Shown: one piece after another, positions 202-22,187 of the stretch
Position numbering within the stretch: the first letter of the stretch is position 1
Layout: each line of letters opens with the position of its first letter
NCBI GenBank assembly: GCA_963169645.1
Contig: CAUJCO010000007.1
Location: forward strand, 162,737-226,736
Reading direction: 5' to 3'
Length of the DNA stretch: 64,000 nt
Origin: Bacteroidota bacterium
Lineage (GTDB): Bacteria; Bacteroidota; Bacteroidia; Chitinophagales; JADIYW01
Translations under genes and position numbers: made by a program
The notes under the pieces: generated by a model
What the model was told of the DNA's origin: nothing
The model's input: the letters and a program-made list of their open reading frames with translations, nothing else
Database searches by the model: none

Positions 202-936
202 ATGAAAAAATTTATACAATTATTGCTTATTTATTTTGCAATAAACATAGCACACGCACAAACAGGAAATGTAGGTGTTGGTACAGCTTTACCTGCTGAA
301 AAATTACAAGTAGCCGGAAATGTATTGGTAGACCAAACTGTAATAGCTACCAAAGGATTAATTTCCGGAAAAATTCAGCGAAAGTATGGTCTGGCAACAA
401 CTGTAGATAATGCCTTCCATACGGTTGAATTAGATGCAGGTTACGGTGCTACAGCTATCTCTGTTTATTCAAACGCATCTTTTGATGGTGATATAAAAAT
501 AATAGGTACTGATATTTCACCACTCTTATCTACTACTTCTGCTTGGTATTATACGGATGCTGCAAACACTTGGACATCTAAAACTGCAGCTACTGTTAAA
601 GGTCAGTCATTTCCAAATGAAGGACGAGATAATTGTTCGCAAAGAGTTTATTGCCCGGATGGATATATTGCAACCGGATGGGAAGCACATGTTAATGCCG
701 CTGGTTATTTAGAAGATCGGTTACATATTAAATGTACTCAATTAGCCTCGGGATATACAACTGTAGAAACAAATGAAGGTGTGGAAAGTATCTTAAGCTT
801 CCCCGGTGCAGATGTTGACAATATGACGCATGTGGGTTCTTGTCCTACGGGAACATTTATAAAAGGAATCTCTATTTATACAGGGACTTACTATGCAGGA
901 CCATTACAAGTAAACTGTACAGGCATTAAAAGATAG
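202..936 (+). CDS. Secreted QTGNVGIGT-family protein (short form) with a C-terminal double CPxG...C module
   Basis: Signal peptide ends IAHA|QTGNVGVGT. The C-terminal ~200 aa are paralogous to 978-1760 and to the C-terminus of 17382-18740. It starts 15 nt after the upstream T9SS-CTD gene. Confidence 0.85.
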   Translation: MKKFIQLLLIYFAINIAHAQTGNVGVGTALPAEKLQVAGNVLVDQTVIATKGLISGKIQRKYGLATTVDNAFHTVELDAGYGATAISVYSNASFDGDIKIIGTDISPLLSTTSAWYYTDAANTWTSKTAATVKGQSFPNEGRDNCSQRVYCPDGYIATGWEAHVNAAGYLEDRLHIKCTQLASGYTTVETNEGVESILSFPGADVDNMTHVGSCPTGTFIKGISIYTGTYYAGPLQVNCTGIKR

Positions 937-977: not shown

Positions 978-1760
978 ATGAAATACAAATTAACCATCAT
1001 GCTATTTATTGTATTTTACACTCATTTATTTGCTCAAACAGGGAATGTGGGCATTGGTACTTCTGTTACCAGCCCTTCAGAAAAATTACAAGTGGGTGGC
1101 AATATGTTAATTGACAATAATATTATTGCCAATAAAGGATTAATTACAGGTAAAATAGAAACTGCCTCAGTAACCACCCGAACAAACGCAAATGGACATT
1201 ATTGGACTTCTGTTGTTTTAAGCAATGGATATGGTGCAAACGCTGTAAGTGCATATAAACAAAGTGGAGGTGTTGGTGGTTTTGTTGGTTATGATGGAAC
1301 ACGTCCACCAATGAAAATTTCAGGAATTGATATTTCCAGTCTATTATCCACCACACATACTTGGTATAGAACTAGTAGTACAACAGCTTGGAATAGCACT
1401 TCATCTGCACAATATCAAGCATCTGGAACAAGAATCAGTAATTCATCTAATATGGTTTACTGTCCAGATGGATCTATCGTTACAGGTTGGGAAGCTACTG
1501 TGGGATCATCACCAAGTGCTACTTGGATTGATGGTTATTTACATGTTCGCTGTACACAATTAGCATCGGGATATACAACTGTAGAAGCAAATGAAGGTGT
1601 AGAGAGTATATTATCTGCTCCAGATAAGGCTACAGATAATCTCACGCACCTAGCCGCCTGTCCAAATGGTACATTTATTAAAGGAATATCTACTTATAGA
1701 AATGGTGCTTATATAAACAATAATTTAAGAGTAAATTGTACCGGTATCAAAAAACAATAA
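978..1760 (+). CDS. Secreted QTGNVGIGT-family protein (short form), tandem paralog of 202-936
   Basis: Signal peptide HLFA|QTGNVGIGT. It shares the blocks KLQVGGNMLID, KGLITGKIE, VYCPDGSIVTGWE, RCTQLASGYTTVEANEGVESILS, CPNGTFIKGIS and VNCTGIK with 202-936. Confidence 0.85.
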   Translation: MKYKLTIMLFIVFYTHLFAQTGNVGIGTSVTSPSEKLQVGGNMLIDNNIIANKGLITGKIETASVTTRTNANGHYWTSVVLSNGYGANAVSAYKQSGGVGGFVGYDGTRPPMKISGIDISSLLSTTHTWYRTSSTTAWNSTSSAQYQASGTRISNSSNMVYCPDGSIVTGWEATVGSSPSATWIDGYLHVRCTQLASGYTTVEANEGVESILSAPDKATDNLTHLAACPNGTFIKGISTYRNGAYINNNLRVNCTGIKKQ

Positions 1761-5682: not shown

Positions 5683-5858
5683 GCAAATTGGTTTTCGGTT
5701 TCATATCCGAGATTAAAAGGGAAACAAGTGAAAGTCTTGTACAATCCCAGTTGCTGTAAGCACACCACCATAGTGGTACTGAAGGCTACAACCACTGATT
5801 TGATACATCAAATCGGGAAGGTTTCAGTTAAGTGTAAGTCAGAAGACCTGCCAATTTC
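5683..5858 (+). promoter_or_regulatory. Cobalamin (B12) riboswitch
   Basis: Conserved core AAAAGGGAAacaaGTGAAAgTC...CCCagtTGCTGTAAG, CCACTG...GGGAAGG, and B12 box AGTCAGAAGACCTGCC at 5837-5852. P1 pairs aaattgg (5685-5691) with ccaattt (5851-5857). A near-consensus -7 box TAATATTG lies at 5671-5678. Confidence 0.85.
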
Positions 5859-5897
5859 ATTGAACTAAAAAATGTTCTGAGGAAACATTGGAAGTAT

Positions 5898-8929: not shown

Positions 8930-9162
8930 TGCCTGAAACATTTAGCAAAAATTGCCTGCGTTGTCATACTACTTTTGTATGTAATGCAGGCAATATTTCT
9001 TTATGTCAATGTAATAACGTCCAAATTGATAAACGTGTTTTTCAGTATATCAATGCAAATTATAAAGATTGTTTATGTCAAAGATGTTTGCAAGAAATAC
9101 AAGAAATTTTACGTATCTATTCCACTCAACAAGATAACCTCCTTTCCTATCGGAATAAATAA
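8929..9162 (+). CDS. Small cysteine-rich protein (CWC-family-like)
   Basis: 77 aa with CLRC...C...CQC...CLCQRC. TAATG overlap with the upstream gene. Confidence 0.5.
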   Translation: MPETFSKNCLRCHTTFVCNAGNISLCQCNNVQIDKRVFQYINANYKDCLCQRCLQEIQEILRIYSTQQDNLLSYRNK

Positions 9163-9187
9163 AGTTTAACATTAAAAAAATATTGCA

Positions 9188-9195
9188 TACTTTTG
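9188..9195 (+). promoter_or_regulatory. -7 box TACTTTTG
   Basis: Matches TAnnTTTG, 17 nt upstream of the GTG start at 9212. Confidence 0.4.
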
Positions 9196-9211
9196 TTTAA
9201 AATGAAAGTGT

Positions 9212-10480
9212 GTGAAAAAACGTTACATCCTTTTAGTTTTATTTTTTCTATTTGCACTTTACTTGGTATGGTGTAACATCAGTATTATCTACACTCGTAA
9301 ACCATCTGCCAAAACAATTCCACTTATTGATAAAATCCAATATGATACGGATTCGTTTTTTATTAGTAATTCTACATTAATTTGGCAAGGATTTTATCAC
9401 GATTGGACCTATAATCATCGCGTAAACAGATTAGGAGATTGGGTTCAAAATATTCCTTCAGAAAGCGAACAATTTAGAGGTTTATTTAACCATGCTGCGG
9501 CATCCGGTATTGGAGCAGATGTGTTATCATATAATACGTTTTTCACCTATCTGCATTCATCCAAAATAAAAGCATTTACATCAACGGTACATGCTGTTGT
9601 ACGCGGTAGAGAAGCAACTTCTACTACTAAAATAATTTCTGTTAAAGGAAAAATTCCGGCACAAATGCGTGCATATAATCATGCAACAATTTTATTAAAT
9701 GGATTTGATATTTTTTGTAGAAGTAAAGATGATGGAAAAATTATGGGAACCGGCAAAGCCGATAAATTATCCGACTTAATTATAGAAGTAAATCATTTAA
9801 AATGGAAAAATGATTCTTTTGAATTTGACTTAAAAATTAGCTTAGGTGCCGATTGCGATTCACCGGAATGTCTAAATTTTACGCCGGGCGATAATGAATG
9901 GTTTGATTATAACTTTACAGTTGCCTACCAAATAATAGCATACAACGAAGGTGTGCACGTAACAGATAAAAACATTCAACAATCGTATCGTTGGTTTAAG
10001 CCTTTTAAAACACGCCCAAGCATTGACCCAAATGAAATATACAGAACTCAAAAGGCAATGAATAACTTAAAGATAAAAGGCATTCCTGGATATCAAGTTG
10101 GCATTCCTGCAATTCATACATTAAAAATTAATTTACCTAAAGATGAAGGTGGTTTGTTGCGGAAGCGTTTAGAAACGCCGCACATGCTTTCGTTAGATGT
10201 TGCAATAAATAATTTTCGTTATGATGTCCATTCCGGAATTTGCACTTACAATGCTGATTTGTTTTTTAAAAATTGGAAACCCAATATGCCACTTTTATCT
10301 TATGGAAATAATGGAAAAGCATTTATTAATTTAGGTGTTCGATTAGTACAAATTCAAGATGCATCAGCCATTGTTGAAGATGAATCTGTAAAAGGCAAAA
10401 TAGATTGGCAAACAACCGAAGTGGAAGAACGAAATGCCAACGACCCGAATTCTATTAAATCATTTGTATTTGTAAAATAA
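9212..10480 (+). CDS. Hypothetical N-terminally membrane-anchored protein, no recognisable family
   Basis: 422-aa ORF with a GTG start and one N-terminal hydrophobic helix (ILLVLFFLFALYLVW). The stop overlaps the next start by 1 nt. Confidence 0.6.
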   Translation: MKKRYILLVLFFLFALYLVWCNISIIYTRKPSAKTIPLIDKIQYDTDSFFISNSTLIWQGFYHDWTYNHRVNRLGDWVQNIPSESEQFRGLFNHAAASGIGADVLSYNTFFTYLHSSKIKAFTSTVHAVVRGREATSTTKIISVKGKIPAQMRAYNHATILLNGFDIFCRSKDDGKIMGTGKADKLSDLIIEVNHLKWKNDSFEFDLKISLGADCDSPECLNFTPGDNEWFDYNFTVAYQIIAYNEGVHVTDKNIQQSYRWFKPFKTRPSIDPNEIYRTQKAMNNLKIKGIPGYQVGIPAIHTLKINLPKDEGGLLRKRLETPHMLSLDVAINNFRYDVHSGICTYNADLFFKNWKPNMPLLSYGNNGKAFINLGVRLVQIQDASAIVEDESVKGKIDWQTTEVEERNANDPNSIKSFVFVK

Positions 10481-11022
10481 TGATTATACCACGTCAAATA
10501 TATTGTAGTAACTGCGGTGAACAAGTTGTATATAAAATTGCGGAAGGCAGAGAACGATCTGTTTGTGAACATTGCAATACCATTCATTATACCAATCCTA
10601 AAATAGTTGCCGGTGCATTGTGTGTTTGGGAAAATAAAGTATTGTTATGCCGCAGAGCTATTGAACCTCGAAAAGGTTATTGGAATTTGCCTGCCGGATA
10701 TTTGGAAGATTTTGAAAAAGTAGAAGATGGAGCAATCCGAGAAACATGGGAAGAAGCAGGTGCCGAAATTTGCATCGATAAAGTTATTACGGTATATAAC
10801 ATTCCTCAAGCCAATCAAGTGTATGTTCATTTTTTAGCCAACTTGAAAGATGGAATTATTCGCAATGGCGAAGAAAGCATTGAATCTGCATTGTTTACCG
10901 AAGAAGAAATTCCTTGGAATGAAATGGCATTTACGTCTTCTTCATTTGCTTTGCGTCATTATTTTGAAGATAGAAAAAAGGGTGTTTATAATACACATTT
11001 AGGCACTTTTCCTGAAAAATAA
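10480..11022 (+). CDS. NUDIX hydrolase with N-terminal zinc ribbon
   Basis: CSNCG...CEHCN zinc ribbon. Nudix box GYLEDFEKVEDGAIRETWEEAGAE. Confidence 0.85.
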   Translation: MIIPRQIYCSNCGEQVVYKIAEGRERSVCEHCNTIHYTNPKIVAGALCVWENKVLLCRRAIEPRKGYWNLPAGYLEDFEKVEDGAIRETWEEAGAEICIDKVITVYNIPQANQVYVHFLANLKDGIIRNGEESIESALFTEEEIPWNEMAFTSSSFALRHYFEDRKKGVYNTHLGTFPEK

Positions 11023-11046
11023 TCGTTTACTTTATCGCATTTTTAG

Positions 11047-11054
11047 TATATTTG
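11047..11054 (+). promoter_or_regulatory. -7 box TATATTTG, implying a near-leaderless transcript
   Basis: Matches TAnnTTTG and ends 4 nt before the ATG at 11059. Confidence 0.4.
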
Positions 11055-11058
11055 CAGT

Positions 11059-11643
11059 ATGAAAAATTCAACATCTACATCTAATTTTTGGTTAGCAACC
11101 GCATTAATAATTGCATCACTTATATTTCGCATAGTTTCCAATCAATTGGCATTCTTTAATTTCACTCCGGTGATTGCAGTTGCTTTGTTTGCAGGTGCAA
11201 AATTTAAAGACAATAAATGGGCATTTTTAATTCCAATCATTACGTTATTTATTTCAGATGCAGTGTTGGCGTACTTAAATAATTTCAGCTTATTACACGA
11301 AACAATTTTATTTACCTACGGTTCTTTAATGTTGATTATTGCTTTGGGAAAAGTATTACAAAAAGACAAATTAAATGTTCCTAAAATTGCCGGATTATCT
11401 ATATTATCATCTGCCTTATTTTTCATTTTAACAAATTTTGGTGTATGGGCATTTGGTAACATGTACACGCATGATATAGATGGTTTAATAAAATGCTACG
11501 TTTTAGCAATTCCTTTTAATAAAGTTTCTTGGATGGGTGATATGGTATTTTCACTTGCATTGTTCGGCGCCTACGAGTGGATGCAAGCTCCATCGACCAA
11601 CATAACTAAAGCGTTTGTGTCGCACAAAAACGACCAGCAATAA
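11059..11643 (+). CDS. Multi-pass membrane protein (DUF6580-like)
   Basis: About 5-6 hydrophobic helices. Blocks NFTPVIAVALFAGAKF and FFILTNFGVW. The family assignment is from memory only. Confidence 0.5.
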   Translation: MKNSTSTSNFWLATALIIASLIFRIVSNQLAFFNFTPVIAVALFAGAKFKDNKWAFLIPIITLFISDAVLAYLNNFSLLHETILFTYGSLMLIIALGKVLQKDKLNVPKIAGLSILSSALFFILTNFGVWAFGNMYTHDIDGLIKCYVLAIPFNKVSWMGDMVFSLALFGAYEWMQAPSTNITKAFVSHKNDQQ

Positions 11644-11729
11644 TTATCCTTAGTACATTTCTTTCTTACGTAAATGTTATTTTAACAACTGTTACTATCT
11701 TTATTTATTTCAGTTAAATTATAAATGCA

Positions 11730-11737
11730 TACATTTG
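11730..11737 (+). promoter_or_regulatory. -7 box TACATTTG upstream of glmM
   Basis: Matches TAnnTTTG, 22 nt upstream of the GTG start. Confidence 0.4.
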
Positions 11738-11758
11738 CCACTCTAATATTTTTTTATC

Positions 11759-13144
11759 GTGTCATTAATTAAATCTATATCAGGCATACGTGGTACTATT
11801 GGCGGGAAATCAGGAAGTGGATTAACACCTGTAGATATTGCTAATTTCACCTTAGCATTTGGCTCTATCTTAAAGGCTAAAGATGGCAAGAAAATAGTTG
11901 TAGGTAGAGATGCACGTATTTCTGGCGAAATGGTACATCATATTGTGGTTGGCAACTTAATCAGCATTGGTATAGATGTAGTAGATATAGGTTTGGCAAC
12001 TACACCAACGGTAGAAATGGCCGTTGTGGCAGAACAAGCAGATGGCGGTATCATTATCACTGCATCACATAATCCGAAACAATGGAATGCCTTGAAATTA
12101 TTAAATAGCAAAGGTGAATTTATTTCGGATAAAGTTGGAAAAGAGGTACTGAAAAAAGCAACTTCCAAATTTGATTTTTCAGAAGTAGATAAATTAGGAC
12201 AGGTTACTAAAAAAGACTATCTCGATTATCATATCGAACAGATTTTAAAAATTCCTTATGTAGATGTAGAAGCAATTCGCAATAAAAAATTGAAAGTTGT
12301 TGTAGATGCAGTAAATAGTGTTGGAGGAATTGCAGTTCCTAAATTATTGAATGCATTAGGTGTCGAAACCATATATGAAATTCATTGCGAACCGAATGGA
12401 AAATTTGCACATAATCCGGAGCCATTACCGGAGCATCTTTCTTCATTGGCTTCCGAAGTGAAACAACGTAAAGCAGATATTGGTATTGCAGTAGATCCGG
12501 ATGTAGATAGATTGGCATTGATTGATGAAAAAGGAAATCCATTTGGCGAAGAATATACATTGGTTGCAGTAGCAGATTATGTATTACAACATAAAAAAGG
12601 AAATACCGTTTCTAATCTTTCTTCAACAAAAGCATTGAAAGACATTAGCTTAAAACACGGTGTAACCTACACAGCATCCGCTGTAGGTGAAGTAAATGTG
12701 GTAGAGAAAATGAAAGAAACCAATGCTATTATTGGTGGAGAAGGAAATGGTGGAATTATTTTACCGGAATTGCATTATGGCCGTGATGCATTAGTAGGTA
12801 TTGCATTGATACTTTCGCAATTGGCAACTACTAAAAAGAGTGTTCATGCCTTGCGTGCACAATATCCGAATTACGTGATTTCAAAAAATAAAATTCAATT
12901 ACAAGAGGATATGAATTTGGTTGAAATCATTGACAAAATTAAGGAGAAATACCAGCAATATCCACAAAACACCATTGATGGTTTACGCATCGATATTGAT
13001 GAAGATTGGGTACACTTGCGTGGCTCCAACACAGAACCTATTATTCGCATTTATGCAGAAAGCTCCACAGAGCAAACAGCCAATGCCATTGCCCAAAAAA
13101 TGATGAAAGATATTACGGCAATTATTAAACAAATTAATAATTGA
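11759..13144 (+). CDS. glmM: Phosphoglucosamine mutase / phosphohexomutase
   Basis: Active-site TASHNPKQWNALK, metal loop AVDPDVDR, GEGNGG sugar loop. GTG start. Confidence 0.85.
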   Translation: MSLIKSISGIRGTIGGKSGSGLTPVDIANFTLAFGSILKAKDGKKIVVGRDARISGEMVHHIVVGNLISIGIDVVDIGLATTPTVEMAVVAEQADGGIIITASHNPKQWNALKLLNSKGEFISDKVGKEVLKKATSKFDFSEVDKLGQVTKKDYLDYHIEQILKIPYVDVEAIRNKKLKVVVDAVNSVGGIAVPKLLNALGVETIYEIHCEPNGKFAHNPEPLPEHLSSLASEVKQRKADIGIAVDPDVDRLALIDEKGNPFGEEYTLVAVADYVLQHKKGNTVSNLSSTKALKDISLKHGVTYTASAVGEVNVVEKMKETNAIIGGEGNGGIILPELHYGRDALVGIALILSQLATTKKSVHALRAQYPNYVISKNKIQLQEDMNLVEIIDKIKEKYQQYPQNTIDGLRIDIDEDWVHLRGSNTEPIIRIYAESSTEQTANAIAQKMMKDITAIIKQINN

Positions 13145-13888: not shown

Positions 13889-15223
13889 ATGAATATGAAA
13901 AGAATTTACACATTTGTAGTACTATTTATACTACTTAAGAGTACATTAGCACAAACCGGAAATGTAGGTATTGGTACTAATGCGCCTAATTCATCTTCAA
14001 AGTTAGATATTACTGCAACAGATAAAGGTTTATTAATACCAAGAGTGGCATTAACAGGAACTACAGATGCAACTACAATAACTTCGCCTGCTACATCTTT
14101 AATGGTATATAATACTGCAACTGCAGGCACTGCACCCAATAATGTAACTCCAGGTTATTATTATAATGCTGGCACAACAAGTGCACCTAATTGGGTGCGA
14201 TTGCAAACAAAAGCAGATAATGATTGGACTAAAACAACTACAACTTCTACACCTGCCATCAAAACAGACGATCAGTATATTACTGGAAAAGTAGGTATAG
14301 GGGATTTTTCTACAACAAATACTTTGAAAAACTTACACATTAAACATTCAAGTAATACTGATGGAATTTTATTGCAAAATACAACAGGAGGTGCTGGTAG
14401 TACCACAAATATATTCTTTTCCACTTATGCTGATTTAGTTGCCGGCACAAACAGACCAGGAGCATCTATAAAGGCAGTAGATGGTGGTGGATATAGTGCA
14501 GATTTAATTTTTAGTACAAAAGTTCCAGGTGCAGATGCGAATGCATTAACAGAAAGAGTATTATTTAAAGCAAACGGTCAAGTACAAGTGAATAATTTAG
14601 CAGGAACCGGCAATAGACCTGTTTCAGCAGATCCAAATGGTGTTTTAATTATTGGCAATAAGCTAAGAGAAACAACCGTACATGATTTATATATACCTTC
14701 CTATATATCTTGTAGTGGTTGTGATAAATTTCTTTGGTTTCCAAGACCAGGCGGAAGCAGTGGCGATGATGAAGATGATAATCCTTTATATGAAAGAAAT
14801 ATGTGGATTGCTCCGTATAATGGACGCATCGTTTCCATTACGTTAGCTGTTGATCCTACAAGCAGCAATAGCGGAGTAGAAATTAGTAATGGTCGTTTTG
14901 TTTTTGAACACGATAATGTACTTTCAGAGTCAGGTGTAAGTTACATTACTAATATGCTAAATGGTTCTTATACTAATGCTGCTAATTGGCAAGGTGGTGA
15001 ATATACCACTGTTTATGGTTCGCCTACCTATTCAATAGGTTCTCCGAATAGAGGAAGATTTAGTGTAAATGAAACACAAAAAATTAGATGGGATAGTAAA
15101 GGATCTACACTCTTTTCTTTTACTAAAGGAGAAACATTAGCACTTGGGTTTTCAGCTAATTATATTGAAGATAATTCCTATCATATAACTGTTGTTTGGG
15201 AATATGATGTAGATGATTATTAA
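13889..15223 (+). CDS. Secreted QTGNVGIGT-family protein (long form, unique C-terminal head)
   Basis: Signal peptide STLA|QTGNVGIGT. The N-terminal ~85 aa (LDITATDKGLLIPRVALT...LMVYNTATAGTAPNNVTPGYYYNAG) are nearly identical to 17382-18740. The C-terminal ~340 aa are unrelated to the other members. Confidence 0.85.
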   Translation: MNMKRIYTFVVLFILLKSTLAQTGNVGIGTNAPNSSSKLDITATDKGLLIPRVALTGTTDATTITSPATSLMVYNTATAGTAPNNVTPGYYYNAGTTSAPNWVRLQTKADNDWTKTTTTSTPAIKTDDQYITGKVGIGDFSTTNTLKNLHIKHSSNTDGILLQNTTGGAGSTTNIFFSTYADLVAGTNRPGASIKAVDGGGYSADLIFSTKVPGADANALTERVLFKANGQVQVNNLAGTGNRPVSADPNGVLIIGNKLRETTVHDLYIPSYISCSGCDKFLWFPRPGGSSGDDEDDNPLYERNMWIAPYNGRIVSITLAVDPTSSNSGVEISNGRFVFEHDNVLSESGVSYITNMLNGSYTNAANWQGGEYTTVYGSPTYSIGSPNRGRFSVNETQKIRWDSKGSTLFSFTKGETLALGFSANYIEDNSYHITVVWEYDVDDY

Positions 15224-15243
15224 TCATATCAGAAAAAAAATAG

Positions 15244-15279
15244 AAGATGGCAGATGAAAATATCTGCCATCTTTTTTTT
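15244..15279 (+). terminator. Rho-independent terminator
   Basis: 12-bp stem aagatggcagat/atctgccatctt with loop gaaaat, followed by T8. Confidence 0.8.
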
Positions 15280-15340
15280 ATTGTGAAAAAATTGAGTATA
15301 CTTCATATTTGTAATTACCAGCATTATTATCACCAATAAA

Positions 15341-15453
15341 GGAGATTTCCACTTTTGTGGAATGACAGCGTAGGTGTTGGTCAGATGACTTACTGTCATC
15401 CGACCAATTTTCAAAAATACTTTGTGCACTTTGCTGTTAAAAAAAAGAATCCC
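15341..15453 (+). repeat. Solitary ~113-bp repeat unit including REP-like hairpin copy 7 (15370-15407)
   Basis: ggagatttccacttttgtggaatgacagcGTAGGTGTTGGTCAGATGACTTACTGTCATCCGACCAAttttcaaaaatactttgtgcactttgctgttaaaaaaaa. Confidence 0.85.
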
Positions 15454-15598
15454 TGACTTTACATCTAATTTGAATAAAGAATTTAATCTTTCATTCTTAT
15501 TATTTAACATCGAGAGGATTGTTTTTATTTGATTATTATAAAAAGTAGTACTAATTTTACTTGCAAAAGCATTTTAATAAATTTTACAACTATGTTAC

Positions 15599-17374
15599 AT
15601 GAATAGATTCTACAAGCTTTTTATTATTTTCTTTATTGTTAATTCAGTTAAATTCAGAGCGTTCAGTGCTAATGAGTTCTACAATTATGGTGCCTCTGTT
15701 ACTCTAAACCAAGGCAGTGGTGATGCTAATCCGGTTTTATATATCAATGGTAGTCTTGTTAATAATGATGGCGTTTTAAATAATTCCAACAGTTTTCTGC
15801 AAATAAACAGTGGAAATTTTGCCAATAACGTTAGCACCTATTATTATCAATCTACAGGCAAAGAAGTATTTTCCGGCACAACAGATAATACGATTAGTGG
15901 CACATGGAATGGTACAACACTAAACCGCAATCAATTTTATAATTTAAAGGTTTACAAAACAAGTGCAACAGGAGAAACCGTTATTTTAGGTTCAGTTAAT
16001 GGTAATTCCGTGAATGTCAATGCAGCAGGAACGTTAGAATTTACCGGCTCTAATGGCATTATCAGAACGCAAACTACATCTGCAGGTTCTCCATATAGTG
16101 GAAATTACACGAACGAACTTTATATTCAAAACCCATCGGCTTCCGCAATAACCGGGCATAGTACAGGCAGTGGTGCTACAACAAAATATATAGAAGGAAA
16201 ACTAAGACGACAAGTAAACGGAACAGATACGTATTTCTTTCCGATTGGTGTATCAAAATCGGGCTTAGATGGTATGGAAGCAATTTCCATTAATATGAAT
16301 GCACTTTCCATTGCCGATGGTTCTACCGGATTATTAGGCTATATACAACCGGCTGCTACGCCAAGCATAAATAGTGACTTAATTAGCAACGGTGGCATAT
16401 TATTTTATGATATTGGTGGATTTATAGGAGCAAATAATAATTTCTCCCAATGTGTTGGCGGACCGGATGGACACGACGATGTTGCTGTCATCAATCAAGC
16501 AATTACACACGAATGGATAGTAACGCCTAATGTAGCTCCAACAAGTGTAAGTTATGACCTCACCGTTTTTCCGGGAAGTAATTTAGACAATATAACCTAT
16601 GCTGCTATGGGCACACCTTGCGATGATATTTATACACAAGCAAAATACTTGGCAAGAGATGGAAGAATTGGAGGCAACACAGCAGTAGGACCAACCGTAA
16701 ATTATTGGGTTCCGGGAGTCTATGGTTTATACCAATCTCCTACCGGAAACACAATTGCCGGACAAAATGGGTTTTCAAGATTTAGGCTATTTGGTGCAAC
16801 CGACAACAATACATCACTTCCAGTTGAATTGGTCAGTTTTATATTAACACCTATCAAAAATGAATATTTTGAGCTCAATTGGCAAACAGCCTCTGAACTA
16901 AATAATGCCGGATTTTATTTACAACGAAGCACTGATGGTACCAATTTTGAAGATATAGGTTGGATTGCCGGAAATGGAACAAGTACTTCAATAAATAAAT
17001 ATAGTTTTAATGACAAGAATGTAGAAGTCAACGTTGGCTATTATTATCGTCTGAAACAAATTGATACAGACAATTCGTTTAATTATTCCAATGTGTTATT
17101 TGGTAAATTAATTGGCAATCATTTCGACGTCTTAAATATCTATCCAAATCCGGCTTCAATTAACCCGACAGTTACTGTATTTTCTCCCATAGAGGATCAT
17201 GTTGAAACAACGATTATGGATGTTTTAGGTCGAAAAATCAAAGTTCAATCAACTAAAATAATAAAAGGTAATAATAGTTTTGATTTAACAATAGAAGATT
17301 TAGCTTCAGCTACCTATCTTATTAAATTCCAATCCAATAACACAACCATAACTAAGAAATTTGTAAAAAAATAA
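15599..17374 (+). CDS. Secreted protein with T9SS C-terminal sorting domain (function unknown)
   Basis: Signal peptide. Internal LPVELVSF...WQTASELNNAGFYLQRSTDG...YYYRLKQIDTDNSFNYSNV domain. C-terminal IYPNPAS...MDVLGRKI...TYLIKFQSNNTTITKKFVKK. Confidence 0.8.
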   Translation: MNRFYKLFIIFFIVNSVKFRAFSANEFYNYGASVTLNQGSGDANPVLYINGSLVNNDGVLNNSNSFLQINSGNFANNVSTYYYQSTGKEVFSGTTDNTISGTWNGTTLNRNQFYNLKVYKTSATGETVILGSVNGNSVNVNAAGTLEFTGSNGIIRTQTTSAGSPYSGNYTNELYIQNPSASAITGHSTGSGATTKYIEGKLRRQVNGTDTYFFPIGVSKSGLDGMEAISINMNALSIADGSTGLLGYIQPAATPSINSDLISNGGILFYDIGGFIGANNNFSQCVGGPDGHDDVAVINQAITHEWIVTPNVAPTSVSYDLTVFPGSNLDNITYAAMGTPCDDIYTQAKYLARDGRIGGNTAVGPTVNYWVPGVYGLYQSPTGNTIAGQNGFSRFRLFGATDNNTSLPVELVSFILTPIKNEYFELNWQTASELNNAGFYLQRSTDGTNFEDIGWIAGNGTSTSINKYSFNDKNVEVNVGYYYRLKQIDTDNSFNYSNVLFGKLIGNHFDVLNIYPNPASINPTVTVFSPIEDHVETTIMDVLGRKIKVQSTKIIKGNNSFDLTIEDLASATYLIKFQSNNTTITKKFVKK

Positions 17375-17381
17375 AAATTGT

Positions 17382-18740
17382 ATGATAAAGAAATTTACAT
17401 TATTAACAGCAACATTATTCGTATTAAGTTATGCCAATGCACAAACAGGAAATGTAGGAATTGGAACAGCAGCTCCGGATGCTTCCTCTGTATTGGATAT
17501 AACTTCGACTGATAAAGGTTTATTGATTCCGAGAGTGGCATTAACCGCAACCAATGCAGCCGGACCAATTACGTTACCTGCCTCTTCTTTATTAGTGTAT
17601 AATACTGCAACAGCAGGTACAGCACCGAATAATGTAACGCCGGGATATTACTATAATGCCGGTTCTACAGGTTCTCCTAATTGGAAACGTTTAACTGTAA
17701 AAGCGAACAATGGGTTATCCTTAAATTCTGACGATAATGTGCAATTAGGTGGTGCTTTAATCCAGCCTACTATCATTTCTGGGTTAACTGCTACTAACAC
17801 CATAAGTTTTACAGGAACAGGACAAAATGCATTTAGTGTAGATGGTTCAACTTTTTCTGTTGACGTTTCCAACAATCGAGTTGGTATTGGAACTACTGCT
17901 CCTGATAATACATTAACAGTAAACAATGCAGGTACAACAGGAAGCAATACTTCTTCATATCCACTGGGAATTCAACGAGCAGGTTCTACAGATTTAACAT
18001 TAGGCTCTGATGCAAATTATGCTTTTTTCCAGTCTTGGAATAGCAAACCACTTTTAATAAATGCACAAGGCAATAATGTAGGAATAGGTACTTCTTCTGC
18101 ACCTAAAGAAAGATTACATATCGATGGCAATGTATTGTCTAATAAAAATTATATTGCCACACAAGGCATCGTTACCGGTAAAATAGAACGAATAGTTGGC
18201 CCAGGCACTGGTGCAGATAACCAATGGCATACTGTAGAGCTTAGCAATGGATATGGTGGCACTACAATTTCCGCTTATGCTACCGGTTCTTACTTAGATG
18301 GCGAGATTAAAATACAAGGTGTAGATATATCCGATTTATTAGATAATTCAACAATAGGTTGGTACACAACTGATGCAGGAAATACATGGAAATCAGTTTC
18401 TACAACAAAAGATGCAAGTTCGGGACTTACTGGTGATTCTAGAGGTTATCAAGTTTATTGTCCAAATGATTATATTGCAACCGGCTGGCAGGTTTATGCA
18501 AACTCTCAATTAGACCATTATCTAAAACTTAGATGTACAAAACTTAAATCTGCTTATGGTACGGTTGAAATCACTGAAGGCATAGAATCTGTCTTGAGTA
18601 GTCCTCGAAATACAGGAGATAATATTACACATTTTAGTGCTTGTCCGGCAGGTACTTTTATCAAAGGACTAAGCATTTATGCTAATACTTATTTAGATGG
18701 AAACCTAACTGTAGGGTGCACCGGTATTAAACTTAAATAA
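17382..18740 (+). CDS. Secreted QTGNVGIGT-family protein (long mosaic form): N-module + middle module + double CPxG...C C-module
   Basis: YANA|QTGNVGIGT. Residues 21-100 match 13889-15223, residues 122-241 match 18752-20278, and residues 230-452 match 202-936 and 978-1760. It starts 7 nt after the T9SS-CTD gene. Confidence 0.9.
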   Translation: MIKKFTLLTATLFVLSYANAQTGNVGIGTAAPDASSVLDITSTDKGLLIPRVALTATNAAGPITLPASSLLVYNTATAGTAPNNVTPGYYYNAGSTGSPNWKRLTVKANNGLSLNSDDNVQLGGALIQPTIISGLTATNTISFTGTGQNAFSVDGSTFSVDVSNNRVGIGTTAPDNTLTVNNAGTTGSNTSSYPLGIQRAGSTDLTLGSDANYAFFQSWNSKPLLINAQGNNVGIGTSSAPKERLHIDGNVLSNKNYIATQGIVTGKIERIVGPGTGADNQWHTVELSNGYGGTTISAYATGSYLDGEIKIQGVDISDLLDNSTIGWYTTDAGNTWKSVSTTKDASSGLTGDSRGYQVYCPNDYIATGWQVYANSQLDHYLKLRCTKLKSAYGTVEITEGIESVLSSPRNTGDNITHFSACPAGTFIKGLSIYANTYLDGNLTVGCTGIKLK

Positions 18741-18751
18741 ATAAATATGTT

Positions 18752-20278
18752 ATGAAAAAAATATTAATCATCATACTTTTCTTAGGAAAAATATATAGTT
18801 TCGCACAAACCGGAAATGTAGGAATTGGTACGGCTGCACCGGATGCTTCCTCTGTACTAGATATAACTTCAACTGATAAAGGCTTATTGATTCCAAGAGT
18901 AAGTATTGGAAATGTTTCTACTTTTGGACTTTCCGGTAGTACAAATACTGCAGGTATGATAGTTTATAATACCAATGCGAGTATTTCAGGTGGTTATGGT
19001 GTAGGTTTTTATTTTTGGAATGGTAGTAGTTGGCAGAAATTAAAACAAGGTGCCCCCATTAATGCCCAAAATGCTATAAATCTAAATACTACTACACCAA
19101 ATGCATCTGCACAATATCCTTATGTAGAATTAGGCGGTGCGTTAGTTCGTCCTACAGTAATTAGTGGCTTAACATCAACTAACACTTTAAGTTTTACAGG
19201 AACAGGACAAAATGCATTTAGTGTAGATGGTTCTACTTTTTCAGTTGATGTTTCCAACAATAGAGTTGGTATTGGAACTACTATACCATCCAACACACTT
19301 AATGTTAATAATGCAGGTACTACAGGAAGCAATACAGATTCATATCCTTTAGGAATTCAACGTTCAGGTGCTACTGATCTAACTTTAGGTAGCGATGGTT
19401 CTTATGCACTTATGCAATCTTGGAACGGAAAACCATTGTTAATAAATACACAAGGTAATAATGTTGGAATTGGTACTACTTCTGCTCCGAGTAAATTAAC
19501 TGTAAATGGCACTATTGAAGCATTAGACTTTACCGGAGCCAATGGAAGAAATATAATAGTTGGTGATGATGCTTTTCTTTCTGATGTAGATGCAGCAAAT
19601 ACCATTGGTTTAATTAGTATGACAAATGCAACTTTAGGTACATTAAGATTAGGAAATAACAGTGCTGCCAATATAAATGGAATGAATGGGAATTTAGGTC
19701 TTAAAACGACCACAAATGTACAAGAAGTCAATATTGGAGGTAGAATGTATATTACCAATGGTGTAATTCAGACTGGTGGAACAGCCGTTACAGGAACTTC
19801 CGATTTAGGTTTATATTCTAGAACATCCGGTAACTACATACGAATTGTAACGAATAATGCACCTGTAAACTTTTATTCTGATGACAATACAGGAACTAGC
19901 ATAAATGTATCCATTACCAATACCGGCGTTTTAGAAGCACAAAAAGGATTTAGAACTGAAAGACATATCAGATTCTATAGAAGAAGTAGAGGTAACAATG
20001 GTGGTGGTGTAGATAATTTAGGAAATTATGATTTTTGCTATCTAGCCGGAGTTGCATTTAGAAACTCGGATAGTGTATCAGATGAAGATGATGATTACCA
20101 ATGTAATGTGTATTCGCAGGATATTAATGGAAATGCTGATTATGATGAAGGAGAAAATACGGATTACTCAGCAAATTTTGGTTACACAAGCCGTCCTTAT
20201 TGGAGAATGTACTCTGAATGTTATCAAGATTGCTCGAATTCAACTTGCACTGCCATCTGTATCAATTTTGATTACTAA
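18752..20278 (+). CDS. Secreted QTGNVGIGT-family protein (long form, acidic Cys-rich C-terminal head)
   Basis: YSFA|QTGNVGIGTAAPDASSVLDITSTDKGLLIPRV is identical to 17382-18740. It has the shared middle module. The unique C-terminus contains DEDDDYQC...ECYQDCSNSTCTAIC. Confidence 0.9.
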   Translation: MKKILIIILFLGKIYSFAQTGNVGIGTAAPDASSVLDITSTDKGLLIPRVSIGNVSTFGLSGSTNTAGMIVYNTNASISGGYGVGFYFWNGSSWQKLKQGAPINAQNAINLNTTTPNASAQYPYVELGGALVRPTVISGLTSTNTLSFTGTGQNAFSVDGSTFSVDVSNNRVGIGTTIPSNTLNVNNAGTTGSNTDSYPLGIQRSGATDLTLGSDGSYALMQSWNGKPLLINTQGNNVGIGTTSAPSKLTVNGTIEALDFTGANGRNIIVGDDAFLSDVDAANTIGLISMTNATLGTLRLGNNSAANINGMNGNLGLKTTTNVQEVNIGGRMYITNGVIQTGGTAVTGTSDLGLYSRTSGNYIRIVTNNAPVNFYSDDNTGTSINVSITNTGVLEAQKGFRTERHIRFYRRSRGNNGGGVDNLGNYDFCYLAGVAFRNSDSVSDEDDDYQCNVYSQDINGNADYDEGENTDYSANFGYTSRPYWRMYSECYQDCSNSTCTAICINFDY

Positions 20279-20307
20279 TTAGTTTCATTTTTACATTACC
20301 AATTCGA

Positions 20308-21705
20308 TTGAAACGTTTTTATTTATTTATATTTCTTGTCTGTACACAAATTGTAAGTGTAAAAGCTCAAAAATTACATCTCGCTTTCAGTGACAGTATT
20401 ATAGAAAAACCATTTAATATTTGGATTAAAACATATAACAATGGCGTTTTTTCAATTAAAGATTCCTTTCTTGTAACTAACGAGAACAAACAAAATATCT
20501 ATTTTAATTTGCCCAATTATATTGGCTATGTCGAGGTTGTAAAAGACAATAAAAATGCTAATAACGGAATTGGTATTTTATTCAATCCGAATGAAAAAGA
20601 GGCTATTTTTTTGTTTAATCAAGAAGATATAAAAACGAATAATTTTCTGTTTAAAAACTCACTTGATAATATTCGATATAATTTAATGATCGAATATATG
20701 GATAAATTCTTTCAGAGATTTGGTGCCTTGCGTAAAGAAAGAAATACTTTAAATCCATTTGATTCTATATATCTCAATAAAGTATTGCAAAATGAATCCA
20801 ATCAAGATGCACTTTATGCGGAAATGAATTTAATTGTCGATTCTATTTTAAAAGTCGATACTGCTTTATATACAACTAAATTAGCCAATTTATTAAAAAC
20901 TCCTTGTAGCACTTCGCTCCCATCTTACAAAAAATACTTTGATAATTTTAATGCTTTATTGCATTATCACTTGTTTGATTATGTCGATTTCACTGATGAA
21001 CATATCATCAATCATCCATTTTTTTACGATAAAATTGATCAATATTTCAATTTATATTGTAATGCAACTAATATCCAAAATGGCATCGATATACTTATGC
21101 AAAACGCTTCAAAAAATGAAAAAGTAAAAGAAGTTGTCATTAATTATTTAGTCAGTTATTTCTTATTAAATAAGAATGATGAATTGGTCGCTTATGTGTA
21201 TGAAAAATACGGAGAATTGTGCAGTATAAATTTAGGCGCTAAACAAATGAAAGAATTTTCCAATATTGTGCACACACAAGTTGGTTCAACAATTCCGGAT
21301 ATTGTTTTATACGATTCAAAAAACAATATGCAATCTTTGCTTCAAACGGCATCAAAAAATAAATATACTATCGTATATGTTTGGTTGTCGTCTTGTAGTG
21401 CTTGTAATACCAAAACACCCAAATTATCGGAAGAAGCCAAACCATATTTAAATAAAGGATTGAGTGTATTTTCCATTTCGTTAGACGATAAAAAGGACAC
21501 TTGGTTTGAGTCCATTTTAAAATATCAAACGGATAAATGGATAAATGTTGCTGAATTAGTTTCTTTACAAAACTCATCAATTTTACCTAAACTCAATATC
21601 AGAGCAACACCAAAATTATTTATTATAGACAACAAAGGAACGATAATAGCCAAAGACATATACCAAGATGAATTAAATTCCAAACTAAAATCTTTGTTCA
21701 AATGA
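20308..21705 (+). CDS. Exported TlpA-like thioredoxin-fold thiol-disulfide oxidoreductase with a long N-terminal domain
   Basis: TTG start, signal peptide SVKA|Q. The C-terminal thioredoxin fold carries the redox motif WLSSCSACN (CxxC). Confidence 0.7.
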   Translation: MKRFYLFIFLVCTQIVSVKAQKLHLAFSDSIIEKPFNIWIKTYNNGVFSIKDSFLVTNENKQNIYFNLPNYIGYVEVVKDNKNANNGIGILFNPNEKEAIFLFNQEDIKTNNFLFKNSLDNIRYNLMIEYMDKFFQRFGALRKERNTLNPFDSIYLNKVLQNESNQDALYAEMNLIVDSILKVDTALYTTKLANLLKTPCSTSLPSYKKYFDNFNALLHYHLFDYVDFTDEHIINHPFFYDKIDQYFNLYCNATNIQNGIDILMQNASKNEKVKEVVINYLVSYFLLNKNDELVAYVYEKYGELCSINLGAKQMKEFSNIVHTQVGSTIPDIVLYDSKNNMQSLLQTASKNKYTIVYVWLSSCSACNTKTPKLSEEAKPYLNKGLSVFSISLDDKKDTWFESILKYQTDKWINVAELVSLQNSSILPKLNIRATPKLFIIDNKGTIIAKDIYQDELNSKLKSLFK

Positions 21706-22187
21706 AATTTTTATTATCTATACTAACCATTTGCTATCTTATACCATTTCAATTAAGCGCATCTGATAATTCAATTTCAACAATAACAAGCATTTCAAAA
21801 AACGAATTTGATAAAATAAAAAACCCGAATATTGGTCAAATCGTTTTAATAAAAGAAGAAGCAGCACTATATTATTTCAATGGAAAATATTGGATGAAAC
21901 TTAAAGGCGAATGTTTTCCTGAGCCTATATCTCCAAATATTGATAGCATAGTTGTGTCGGATAAAAATGTACTCTTTTATTTCAATGATGAAAAGAAAGC
22001 AACACAACAATATCTCATAAAAAATATGGATTCCGACAATGAATATTTAGTAAAAGAAAGTCCAGCAAAAATCAACTTAAATCTTAAAAAAGGATTTTAT
22101 AACTTCAGCATTTTAGGTAAAAATGAATGTGGAATTTCCGGTCCTCGTTCATCAAAAAGTATTGAAATTATTGAGGAACAAAAGTGA
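21702..22187 (+). CDS. Hypothetical exported protein
   Basis: 161 aa with a signal peptide and an ATGA overlap with the upstream gene. No recognisable motif. Confidence 0.55.
   Translation: MKFLLSILTICYLIPFQLSASDNSISTITSISKNEFDKIKNPNIGQIVLIKEEAALYYFNGKYWMKLKGECFPEPISPNIDSIVVSDKNVLFYFNDEKKATQQYLIKNMDSDNEYLVKESPAKINLNLKKGFYNFSILGKNECGISGPRSSKSIEIIEEQK

What the first reader, a model, noticed from the sequence alone, without database searches (positions are those of the whole stretch)
13889..22187. Candidate undescribed cell-surface system: modular QTGNVGIGT proteins + T9SS cargo + TlpA-like oxidoreductase
**Gene layout.** Five same-strand genes are packed with gaps of 7, 11, 29 and -4 nt: 15599-17374, 17382-18740, 18752-20278, 20308-21705 and 21702-22187. 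A related stand-alone gene (13889-15223) precedes them.

**Family features.** Three of these genes, plus two more at 202-1760, encode Sec-exported proteins whose mature N-terminus is invariably QTGNVGIGT. Cleavage contexts are IAHA|Q, HLFA|Q, STLA|Q, YANA|Q and YSFA|Q. None has a lipobox or a T9SS C-terminal domain, whereas the gene immediately upstream does have a T9SS CTD.

**Module structure.** Every module inside the proteins opens with the same short motif:
- QTGNVGIGTaaP at the N-terminus
- NRVGIGTTaP at the middle module
- GNNVGIGTssaPkerLhidGNV at the head junction

This is the pattern I associate with phage-tail-fibre-like stalk repeats.

**Oxidoreductase link.** The heads are Cys-bearing, and the next gene is an exported CxxC thioredoxin-fold protein. 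That suggests a dedicated disulfide-folding partner.

**Status.** I recognise no described system with this composition, and the function (adhesin, fibre or lectin) is inference.
Basis: partly seen in the sequence, partly recalled or inferred. Interest (0 to 1): 0.8.

Follow-up and report, generated by a model that had tools for sequence, protein, structure and literature searches.

The report
Tail-fibre-like surface fibres with T9SS partner
An uncultured Chitinophagales bacterium carries a conserved, unstudied gene cluster: a type IX secretion (T9SS) cargo protein, exported phage-tail-fibre-like proteins with interchangeable tips, and a dedicated thioredoxin-like enzyme, which probably together build surface adhesin fibres like those recently found in Bdellovibrio.

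Summary
Five genes lie at 15599-22187 with gaps of 7, 11, 29 and -4 nt. Five proteins in the window start A|QTGNVG(I/V)GT after a signal peptide. The upstream gene has a type-A T9SS sorting domain (CTD), and the downstream gene is a CxxC redoxin.

**What the parts are**
- The leading Q is the known Bacteroidetes Q-rule.
- VGIGTxxPxxxL is the capping-loop motif of trimeric beta-helix fibres. A family profile hits the Bdellovibrio MAT (mosaic adhesive trimer) fibres Bd2133 (E 1e-12) and Bd3182 (1e-7).
- Relatives carry Pfam PF26696 (PTL_trimer). Some end in Peptidase_S74, GP38 or Collar tips.

**Is the linkage conserved?**
- Among close partner relatives, a fibre gene follows directly in all 13 pairs examined.
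- The 465-aa redoxin belongs to a small subfamily of 17 clusters. It follows a fibre gene in 11 of 11 loci, and in 10 of 11 that fibre has the Cys-rich "head B".
- Across the whole fibre superfamily (at least 15,000 clusters) these partners are a minority: 20 of 79 and 2 of 79 loci.

**Verdict**
This is a new, T9SS-linked variant of MAT/tail-fibre-like adhesins. Surface display via the partner, and disulfide help from the redoxin, are inferred.

The parts
15599..17374 (+). T9SS cargo 'partner' protein (591 aa). It has a signal peptide, a ~380-aa beta-rich body with no known relatives, an FN3-like LPVELxSF...YYRLKQxDxDG domain (about nt 16811-17128), and a type-A T9SS C-terminal sorting domain (nt 17138-17371).
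   Evidence: Pfam and NCBIfam CTD hits. The AF2 model has pLDDT 91.4. Foldseek hits only FN3/CTD tandems, e.g. PorU. The PDB profile search hits only CTDs. About 95 full-length clusters exist. A PTL_trimer gene is always the next gene.
17382..18740 (+). Fibre protein 1 (452 aa).
- Signal peptide, then A|QTGNVGIGT.
- ~90-aa conserved module (nt 17442-17717).
- Stalk with NRVGIGT (~17880) and GNNVGIGT (~18078) capping-loop motifs.
- Head A (nt 18117-18737): three internal repeats and 4 Cys.
   Evidence: More than 2134 relatives, most annotated PF26696. AF2 pLDDT is 80.6, with the module and head confident. The profile hits Bd2133 and Bd3182. Head A alignment.
18752..20278 (+). Fibre protein 2 (508 aa). 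It has the same N-terminus and stalk. Head B has 6 Cys, with its conserved core about nt 19919-20275 and the ending ...CYQDCSNSTCTAICINFDY.
   Evidence: Head B occurs in the fibre directly upstream of the redoxin gene in 10 of 11 loci.
20308..21705 (+). Exported 465-aa thioredoxin-fold protein. It has a ~320-aa N-terminal domain of unknown function and a TlpA/redoxin-like domain (nt 21277-21672) with CSAC (nt 21394-21405).
   Evidence: Pfam AhpC-TSA, Thioredoxin_8 and Redoxin hits are above threshold. The subfamily has 17 full-length clusters, sharply separated from generic TlpA proteins. It is always next to a fibre gene.
21702..22187 (+). Small exported protein (161 aa, 2 conserved Cys). Its start overlaps the redoxin stop by 4 nt. 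Function unknown.
   Evidence: Conserved in the same position in L082, L084, L086 and L091. No family hit.
13889..15223 (+). Stand-alone fibre protein (444 aa). It has the same N-terminus and conserved module. Head C contains a CSGC motif.
   Evidence: It has its own terminator.
15242..15275 (.). Bidirectional intrinsic-terminator-like hairpin (15-bp stem). It separates the stand-alone gene from the five-gene cluster.
202..936 (+). Minimal family member (244 aa): signal peptide, A|QTGNVGVGT capping motif, then head A directly.
   Evidence: Head A match E 2e-62.
978..1760 (+). Minimal family member (260 aa): signal peptide, A|QTGNVGIGT capping motif, then head A directly.
   Evidence: Head A match E 2e-49.

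Best explanation
The cluster 15599-22187 is a conserved Bacteroidota module that makes phage-tail-fibre-like (MAT-like) trimeric fibres with exchangeable binding tips.

**Shown**
- The fibre proteins are Sec/SPI substrates whose mature N-terminus (Q, following the Bacteroidetes Q-rule) runs straight into the VGIGTxxPxxxL capping-loop motif.
- That motif punctuates the trimeric beta-helix stalks of Bdellovibrio MAT fibres and of S74 phage fibres.
- Each globular module or head is preceded by this motif.
- Heads are swapped between paralogues (A, B and C here; S74, GP38 and Collar elsewhere).
- The upstream type-A-CTD protein and the downstream 465-aa redoxin are specifically and repeatedly co-encoded with such fibres.

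**Inferred mechanism**
1. After Sec export and N-terminal pyroglutamate formation, the fibres trimerise in the periplasm.
2. The redoxin forms or corrects the disulfides of the Cys-rich head B. It tracks that head type.
3. The CTD-bearing partner is taken through the T9SS and attached to the cell surface, as type-A cargo is.
4. The partner then serves as carrier and/or anchor for the CTD-less fibres.
5. The variable tips point outward as adhesins or lectins. Head A is a three-repeat, disulfide-stapled, dermatopontin/beta-prism-like domain.
For: **Fibre nature**
- The family profile hits Bd2133 (8OND, E 1.4e-12) and Bd3182 (8OJN, E 1.1e-7) over repeated G-x-VGIGT-x-x-P-x-x-x-L-x-V segments. Pairwise BLAST against the window protein also aligns these motifs.
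- The MAT paper defines this capping-loop consensus and the trimeric beta-helix.
- Foldseek top PDB hits are the same Bdellovibrio fibres, though weak. Eight BFVD hits with E<1e-3 are phage fibre-like proteins.
- Relatives end in Peptidase_S74, GP38 or Collar.

**Export**
- Signal peptides with A|Q are visible in the sequences.
- The Q-rule literature was located.

**Not phage**
- The flanks are housekeeping genes.
- There is 1 weak hit in 50,697 phage records and 1 hit in IMG/VR.

**Partner linkage**
- Among partner relatives that align over their full length (window, L001, L003, L062, L082-L089), all 13 partner genes are followed within 7-70 nt by a fibre gene, in about 9 different genomic contexts.
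- In the 79-locus sample, 20 of 22 partner-like hits are immediately adjacent on the same strand.

**Redoxin linkage**
- The subfamily has 17 clusters.
- In 11 of 11 loci it follows a fibre gene. In 10 of 11 that fibre has head B. Head B is absent from the four redoxin-less partner loci.
- All fibre Cys lie in the heads.
Against: - No experiment or structure shows trimerisation, surface location, or partner-fibre contact for this family.
- No described precedent for CTD-less proteins riding on or docking to a T9SS cargo was found.
- Most superfamily members (about 59 of 79 sampled loci) have no partner-like gene nearby, so the partner cannot be a general requirement.
- The two minimal proteins (202-936, 978-1760) have almost no stalk.
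- The partner body has no recognisable homologue, so its role is guessed from gene linkage only.
- TlpA-like proteins are usually reductases. The CxxC dipeptide varies (CSAC, CHAC, CHSC, CPHC, CARC), so the direction of the redox reaction is unknown.
- The head A lectin assignment is weak: DERM is below threshold, and Foldseek to beta-prism lectins gives E 0.07-1.
Confidence: 0.5

Rival explanations
1. The fibres are real MAT-like trimers, but the T9SS partner does not carry or anchor them. The fibres would stay in the periplasm, be packed into outer-membrane vesicles, or reach the surface by an unknown route. The partner would be a co-regulated but physically independent surface protein.
For: The fibres have only a Sec signal, with no CTD and no lipobox. 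About three quarters of sampled fibre loci lack a partner-like gene. In Bdellovibrio some MATs are found in a vesicle proteome.
Against: The partner-then-fibre adjacency is invariant across partner identities from 85% down to 30%, in unrelated flanks and with 7-70 nt gaps. A further 11 of 55 immediate neighbours in partner-less loci are other T9SS cargo. That is more than I would expect by chance, but no genome background rate was measured here.
Confidence: 0.22
2. The proteins are offensive rather than adhesive. They would be secreted lectin-like bacteriocins or prey-capture fibres, as MATs are used by Bdellovibrio. The tandem paralogues with swapped heads would reflect an arms race with target cells.
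For: Tandem arrays with diversified tips are common (window; L009 x4; L039 x3; L070 x3). MAT fibres serve prey recognition (PMC10769870). The small head-only proteins at 202-1760 resemble soluble lectins.
Against: No toxin domain and no candidate immunity gene was recognised in the cluster. The only other conserved genes are a redoxin and a small exported protein. Nothing is known about the lifestyle of this MAG.
Confidence: 0.15
3. The genes are a prophage or tailocin remnant, that is, ordinary phage tail-fibre genes.
For: The capping-loop motif and the S74, GP38 and Collar tips are shared with phage fibres. PHROG tail-fibre profiles give weak hits. One viral contig has a tail fibre carrying the ~90-aa module.
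Against: Every member has a Sec signal peptide with Q at +1. There are no other phage genes and the flanks are housekeeping. The genes are conserved with T9SS and redoxin partners in many genomes. They are almost absent from phage databases.
Confidence: 0.03
4. The adjacency is chance. T9SS cargo and TlpA-like genes are both abundant in Bacteroidota, so the neighbours mean nothing.
For: Both families are highly paralogous in the phylum. The redoxin is found in only 2 of 79 fibre-anchored loci.
Against: Reverse censuses anchored on the partner (13 of 13) and on the redoxin subfamily (11 of 11) always return a fibre gene as the direct neighbour. The redoxin also tracks head B.
Confidence: 0.02

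Closest known systems
Bdellovibrio bacteriovorus MAT (mosaic adhesive trimer) fibres, e.g. Bd2133, Bd3182 and Bd1334 (Caulton et al. 2024, PMC10769870; PDB 8OND, 8OJN, 8OML)
   Same: - Chromosomal and non-phage.
- A Sec signal peptide is followed at once by a conserved beta-rich domain.
- The stalk is built from beta-helix segments capped by the V-G-x-G-x-x-x-P-x-x-x-L motif. Profile hits are E 1e-12 and 1e-7.
- There are many paralogues with swapped C-terminal tips, in S74 and non-S74 subgroups.
- The surface anchor is unknown.
   Different: - A different phylum.
- The fibres here are much shorter (244-508 aa against about 1000 aa).
- The conserved ~90-aa domain is a repeat module rather than a unique N-terminal domain. 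Its homology to the MAT N-domain was not tested.
- The heads differ (A, B and C have no PDB relatives).
- The genes are linked to a T9SS type-A cargo gene and a dedicated redoxin. The parts of the MAT paper I read do not mention such partner genes, and to my knowledge Bdellovibrio has no T9SS.
Phage tail fibres and tailspikes with intramolecular-chaperone S74 domains (T5 L-shaped tail fibre 4UW8, K1F endosialidase 3GW6)
   Same: The triple beta-helix stalk logic and the capping-loop motif are shared. Relatives of the window proteins end in Peptidase_S74, GP38 or Collar domains.
   Different: The window proteins have signal peptides, no S74 domain, no phage context, and almost no hits in phage collections.
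Pfam PF26696 'PTL_trimer'
   Same: The precomputed annotation covers about 100 of the 120 listed relatives and the orthologous genes in L082-L092.
   Different: The model is absent from the local Pfam copy, so its boundaries and description could not be read. No paper uses the name. The family label says nothing about the partner, the redoxin or function.
T9SS type-A cargo proteins, which are CTD-dependent and, per the established model for type-A cargo, cleaved and attached to the cell surface
   Same: The partner (15599-17374) has a canonical type-A CTD preceded by an FN3-like domain.
   Different: The fibres themselves lack any CTD. A CTD cargo acting as carrier or anchor for CTD-less partners has no precedent that I could find.
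TlpA/ResA/DsbE-type periplasmic thiol-disulfide oxidoreductases
   Same: The thioredoxin fold with CxxC, and export.
   Different: It scores far below every NCBIfam equivalog cut-off. It has a 320-aa N-terminal extension. It forms a small subfamily confined to fibre loci.

Membership tests
Pfam PF26696 PTL_trimer | Direct match of the window proteins to the PF26696 HMM | not testable with these tools
   The local Pfam-A copy lacks the model: the window proteins and the PF26696-annotated homologues P0001 and P0017 all return no such hit.
Pfam PF26696 PTL_trimer | Clear homology to proteins that carry the precomputed PF26696 annotation | tested here: met
   P0001 (E 6e-127, 51% identity, full length) and most of the 120 listed hits carry PF26696. 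The genes at the equivalent positions of the syntenic locus L082 (11787-13301, 13319-14956) carry it too.
MAT fibres (Bdellovibrio) | Sec signal peptide | tested here: met
   All five proteins have a typical n-h-c region ending AxA|Q. No predictor was run, so this is read from the sequence.
MAT fibres (Bdellovibrio) | Beta-helix stalk with capping-loop motif V-G-G/N-pi-x-x-P-x-x-x-L | tested here: met
   The profile of alignment A1 hits Bd2133 at E 1.4e-12 and Bd3182 at E 1.1e-7 across these motifs. BLASTP of 18752-20278 against Bd2133 aligns NVGIGTTSAPSKLTV with NVGIGATAPTAKLEV. The consensus comes from the paper.
MAT fibres (Bdellovibrio) | Conserved ~130-aa N-terminal domain homologous to that of MATs | not tested
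   No MAT N-terminal sequence was available, because the PDB entries hold only C-terminal parts. The ~90-aa domain here is a repeat module, which argues against a one-to-one equivalence.
MAT fibres (Bdellovibrio) | Homotrimer | not testable with these tools
   Only monomer AF2 was available. The stalk region 185-245 has low confidence in the monomer model.
MAT fibres (Bdellovibrio) | Variable C-terminal tips on a common stalk | tested here: met
   Heads A, B and C occur in the window. S74, GP38, Collar and others occur in relatives.
MAT fibres (Bdellovibrio) | Cell-surface location | not testable with these tools
   This needs an experiment.
Phage tail fibre / Peptidase_S74 proteins | S74 intramolecular chaperone domain | tested here: not met
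   No PF13884 hit in any window protein. It is present in some relatives.
Phage tail fibre / Peptidase_S74 proteins | Phage or tailocin gene context | tested here: not met
   The neighbours are a vitamin transporter, a TonB-type receptor, a NUDIX protein and phosphoglucomutase. There is 1 weak phage hit.
T9SS cargo | C-terminal sorting domain (type A or B) | tested here: met
   For 15599-17374 only: PF18962 at 43.2 bits and TIGR04183 at 41.9 bits. Not met for the five fibre proteins.
TlpA/ResA/DsbE oxidoreductases | Thioredoxin fold with CxxC | tested here: met
   AhpC-TSA at 43.1 bits, Thioredoxin_8 at 41.5 and Redoxin at 39.3, all above their cut-offs. CSAC lies at 363-366.
TlpA/ResA/DsbE oxidoreductases | Membership of a named equivalog (ResA, DsbE, StoA, TrbB) | tested here: not met
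   The best NCBIfam scores are 25-31 bits against cut-offs of 123-170.
Dermatopontin (PF14704), head A | Score above the Pfam gathering threshold | tested here: not met
   13.5 bits for the window protein and at most 23.9 bits in relatives, against a cut-off of 28.3. Four of 15 heads hit at E<0.01. The resemblance is limited to the repeated CPxGxxxxG...D...C unit.
Jacalin-like beta-prism lectins, head A | Significant structural match | tested here: inconclusive
   Foldseek gives E 0.07-1 and TM 0.17-0.30 with the full-length model. Three internal sequence repeats are visible.

The most novel reading that the evidence does not exclude
The co-encoded type-A-CTD protein is a dedicated carrier or anchor that brings CTD-less, periplasmically assembled trimeric fibres to the Bacteroidota cell surface. 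This would be a two-partner ('piggyback' or docking) route through or onto the T9SS. A private thiol-disulfide oxidoreductase would act as folding factor for one tip type. If so, this could also suggest how MAT-like fibres are anchored in general, which the Bdellovibrio work left open.
Probability: 0.3. Interest if true: 0.8.

Novelty: new variant of a known kind. Interest (0 to 1): 0.6.

Why it matters
The ~90-aa fibre module occurs in at least 15,000 protein clusters (50% identity level). The relatives with a stated source are almost all Bacteroidota. Every window copy is named 'hypothetical protein' by its source. No paper on the family or its Pfam name was found.

Linking these proteins by sequence to the structurally solved Bdellovibrio MAT fibres gives them a concrete structural and functional model: trimeric fibres with swappable binding tips.

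The conserved operon adds two testable components that the MAT work lacks. The first is a T9SS cargo protein that may be the missing surface anchor or carrier. The second is a tip-specific redoxin.

If the partner really mediates display of CTD-less proteins, that would extend what the T9SS is known to do. It would matter for adhesion, biofilm and cell-cell recognition in environmental and host-associated Bacteroidota.

Tried and rejected
**Searches that found nothing or very little**
- Local Pfam, NCBIfam and PHROGs on the fibre proteins gave no usable hits.
- A single-sequence PDB search found nothing. Only the family profile worked.
- The head A profile against PDB found nothing meaningful.
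- The partner profile against PDB found only CTDs. Foldseek with the partner model was swamped by FN3/CTD tandems.
- The phage record search gave 1 weak hit.
- One IMG/VR scan with the whole protein found no relative, and one with a module alignment found 1 locus.
- Literature searches for PF26696, PTL_trimer, VGIGT, tail-fibre plus T9SS, and T9SS piggybacking found no description of this system.

**Ideas rejected**
- The small ORF 21702-22187 is related to the fibre module: hhalign probability 6%.
- Prophage remnant: rejected on context and signal peptides.
- Chance adjacency: rejected by the reverse censuses.
- The ~90-aa domain is a unique N-terminal anchor: rejected because it repeats along long fibres.

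Full report
**1. Observation**

The gene layout is exactly as described. ORFs 15599-17374, 17382-18740, 18752-20278, 20308-21705 and 21702-22187 lie on the + strand with gaps of 7, 11, 29 and -4 nt. A related gene lies at 13889-15223, and two short relatives lie at 202-936 and 978-1760.

A six-frame scan finds A|QTGNVGIGT four times and A|QTGNVGVGT once, each at the end of a typical signal peptide. The internal motifs NRVGIGTT.P and GNNVGIGT.SAP occur in the two cluster proteins. None of the signal peptides has a Cys.

Other checks:
- 15599-17374 has a type-A T9SS sorting domain at residues 514-591.
- 20308-21705 has a C-terminal redoxin/thioredoxin-like domain above Pfam thresholds, with CSAC at 363-366.
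- All Cys of the mature fibre proteins are in their C-terminal heads.
- A strong terminator hairpin (15242-15275) follows the stand-alone gene. No + strand terminator-like site lies inside 15599-22187, which is consistent with one operon but does not prove it.
- The surrounding genes are housekeeping: a vitamin transporter, a TonB-type receptor, a NUDIX protein and phosphoglucomutase.
- The window is a 294,588-bp contig of an uncultured Chitinophagales MAG. The sources name the fibre proteins 'hypothetical protein'.

**2. What the fibre proteins are**

Local Pfam, NCBIfam and PHROGs and a single-sequence PDB search gave nothing useful. A search of the large protein collection returned more than 2134 relatives. 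Those with source names are almost all Bacteroidota. Most are annotated with PF26696. That model is missing from the local Pfam copy, and its name, PTL_trimer, appears in the gene tables. Some relatives end in Peptidase_S74, GP38 or Collar domains.

A profile built from 120 family members hits three solved structures, all Bdellovibrio MAT fibres:
- Bd2133 (8OND) at E 1.4e-12.
- Bd3182 (8OJN) at E 1.1e-7.
- A third at E 0.85, which is not significant.

The aligned segments are the repeated motifs, for example ...G-N-V-G-I-G-T-x-x-P-x-x-x-L-x-V. The MAT paper describes these as capping loops of a trimeric beta-helix with consensus V-G-G/N-pi-x-x-P-x-x-x-L, shared with S74 phage fibres. BLASTP of a window protein against the Bd2133 fragment aligns the same motifs.

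The AF2 monomer model (pLDDT 80.6) is confident for the ~90-aa module and the head and poor for the stalk, as expected for an obligate trimer. Foldseek puts the Bdellovibrio fibres on top in PDB, though weakly, and finds phage fibre-like proteins in BFVD.

The leading Q is explained by the Bacteroidetes Q-rule, under which SPI cleavage exposes Gln that is cyclised to pyroGlu (PMC5837995, PMC10653852). In relatives the mature N-terminus is usually Q-N-VGIGT or Q-VGIGT. So the fibre motif begins within 0-3 residues of the cleavage site throughout the family.

**3. Modules**

The conserved ~90-aa domain after the first motif (residues 21-112 of 17382-18740) is not a unique N-terminal domain:
- It occurs five times along a 2340-aa relative (L062) and four times in L088.
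- It occurs up to ten times per protein in the representative library.
- It matches 15,466 cluster representatives at E<=1e-3 and 3,657 at E<=1e-10.

Head A is found in 17382-18740, 202-936 and 978-1760. It consists of three internal repeats (DNxxH...CPxGxxxxG...YAxxxLDxxLxxxC), with four invariant Cys in the last two repeats. It gives sub-threshold dermatopontin hits in 4 of 15 members. It gives weak Foldseek matches to jacalin-like beta-prism lectins and has no PDB sequence relatives.

Head B (18752-20278) ends in a conserved Cys-rich segment. Head C (13889-15223) has a CSGC motif. Neither has known relatives. The two short proteins are just the capping motif plus head A.

**4. Is it a system?**

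*Anchored on the fibre.* Among 79 genome loci from across Bacteroidota, tandem arrays of 2-4 fibre genes are common.
- A homologue of the partner was found in 22 loci. In 20 of them it is the immediately adjacent same-strand gene (gaps -47 to +84 nt), either upstream or downstream. An alignment shows similarity over the whole length, not only the CTD.
- The redoxin was found in only 2 of 79 loci.
- In partner-less loci, 11 of 55 immediate same-strand neighbours are other T9SS cargo: 9 Por_Secre_tail and 2 CHU_C.

*Anchored on the partner family* (about 95 full-length clusters). In L082-L089, with partner identity from 85% down to 30% and unrelated flanks, the next gene is always a PF26696 protein: nine pairs, two of them in L089. 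Adding the window, L001, L003 and L062 makes 13 of 13. A 465-466-aa redoxin follows the fibre gene(s) in 5 of these 8 loci.

*Anchored on the redoxin.* It belongs to a small subfamily of 17 full-length clusters. E-values fall from 1e-105 to 1e-52 and then to 1e-15 before generic TlpA proteins begin.
- Three further loci (L090-L092) again show a fibre gene directly upstream.
- In all, 11 of 11 redoxin loci have a fibre directly upstream.
- In 10 of 11 that fibre carries head B. The exception is L001, which has an 8-Cys head A.
- Head B is absent from the four redoxin-less partner loci.
- The small ORF 21702-22187 is conserved after the redoxin in L082, L084, L086 and L091.

It is a sub-system within a far larger fibre superfamily.

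**5. The partner**

The AF2 model is confident (pLDDT 91.4). Foldseek and PDB profile searches recognise only the C-terminal FN3-like domain plus CTD, for example PorU and other T9SS CTDs. The ~380-aa beta-rich body, which has two nearly invariant Cys, has no recognisable relative.

**6. Mechanism (inferred)**

1. The fibres are exported by Sec with Q-rule processing.
2. They trimerise in the periplasm.
3. The private redoxin handles the disulfides of head B.
4. The partner is exported and surface-anchored by the T9SS.
5. The partner carries or anchors the fibres, and the variable tips point outward as adhesins or lectins.

No precedent for T9SS piggybacking was found. No tool here could test the partner-fibre interaction, trimerisation or localisation. 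I put about 0.5 on this full chain. I put about 0.85 on 'MAT/tail-fibre-like fibre with swappable tips', and about 0.8 on 'partner and redoxin are functionally linked'.

Rivals:
- The fibres are not displayed via the partner (periplasm, vesicles or another route).
- The role is offensive or prey-binding rather than adhesive.
- The prophage-remnant and chance-adjacency readings are effectively excluded by the signal peptides, the genomic context, the phage database searches and the reverse censuses.

**7. Comparison and novelty**

The closest described system is the Bdellovibrio MAT fibre family (PMC10769870). It shares the signal peptide, a conserved domain directly after it, the capping-loop beta-helix stalk, the swappable S74 and non-S74 tips, and an unknown anchor.

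The differences are the phylum, the shorter length, the repeat nature of the conserved module, the novel heads, and the operonic link to a T9SS cargo and a dedicated redoxin.

I rate this a new variant of a known kind, not categorically new. The domain is in Pfam and the stalk class is structurally known. Interest is 0.6: the family is very large and unstudied, and the operon supplies a concrete, testable candidate for the anchor or carrier that the MAT work left unidentified.

Noticed in passing
window 3255-13144 compared with L082 1-9870: The ~10-kb block from the M43-CTD peptidase gene to the phosphoglucomutase gene is inverted relative to the closest relative (GCA_041393035.1). In the window the block lies between fibre genes (978-1760 and 13889-15223). 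In L082 the M43 gene sits directly upstream of the partner, with no stand-alone fibre between them.
   Followed up: partly
L084 6864-7907; L086 7065-7814; L083 5300-6571: A GldB lipoprotein gene lies directly upstream of the partner gene in L084 and L086. A T9SS_plug_1st gene lies three genes upstream in L083. This may be further linkage to gliding or T9SS genes.
   Followed up: no
L062 7412-14434; L088 9925-15276: Giant fibre relatives (2340 and 1783 aa) repeat the ~90-aa conserved module five and four times. L088 ends in a GP38-like tip.
   Followed up: partly
L093 4883-6337 (IMG/VR contig): This is the only viral-contig hit. It is a PHROG tail-fibre protein whose C-terminal end carries the ~90-aa module, next to other tail-fibre-like genes. 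It hints at module exchange between phage and cellular fibres.
   Followed up: partly
window 21702-22187: A small exported 161-aa protein with two conserved Cys is conserved after the redoxin gene in several loci. It is distantly related to longer proteins next to fibres in L014 (12585-13610) and L088 (16152-17105, weak Fib_succ_major). Function unknown.
   Followed up: partly
window 3255-4733 (-): A second T9SS type-A cargo is in the window: a Peptidase_M43 (pappalysin-like) protein with Por_Secre_tail.
   Followed up: no
window 14711-14722 (residues 275-278 of 13889-15223): Head C of the stand-alone fibre has its only two Cys as a CSGC motif. CxxC motifs also occur in the heads of several relatives (CNDC, CDGC, CGGC).
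   Followed up: no
window 15229-15510 (-): A 93-aa ORF on the opposite strand overlaps the terminator hairpin in the 375-nt gap before the cluster. It is probably spurious.
   Followed up: no
L089 1896-12154: Two partner-fibre pairs lie on one contig. Each pair is followed by a convergent Metal_hydrol (PF10118) gene, which suggests duplication of a three-gene unit.
   Followed up: no
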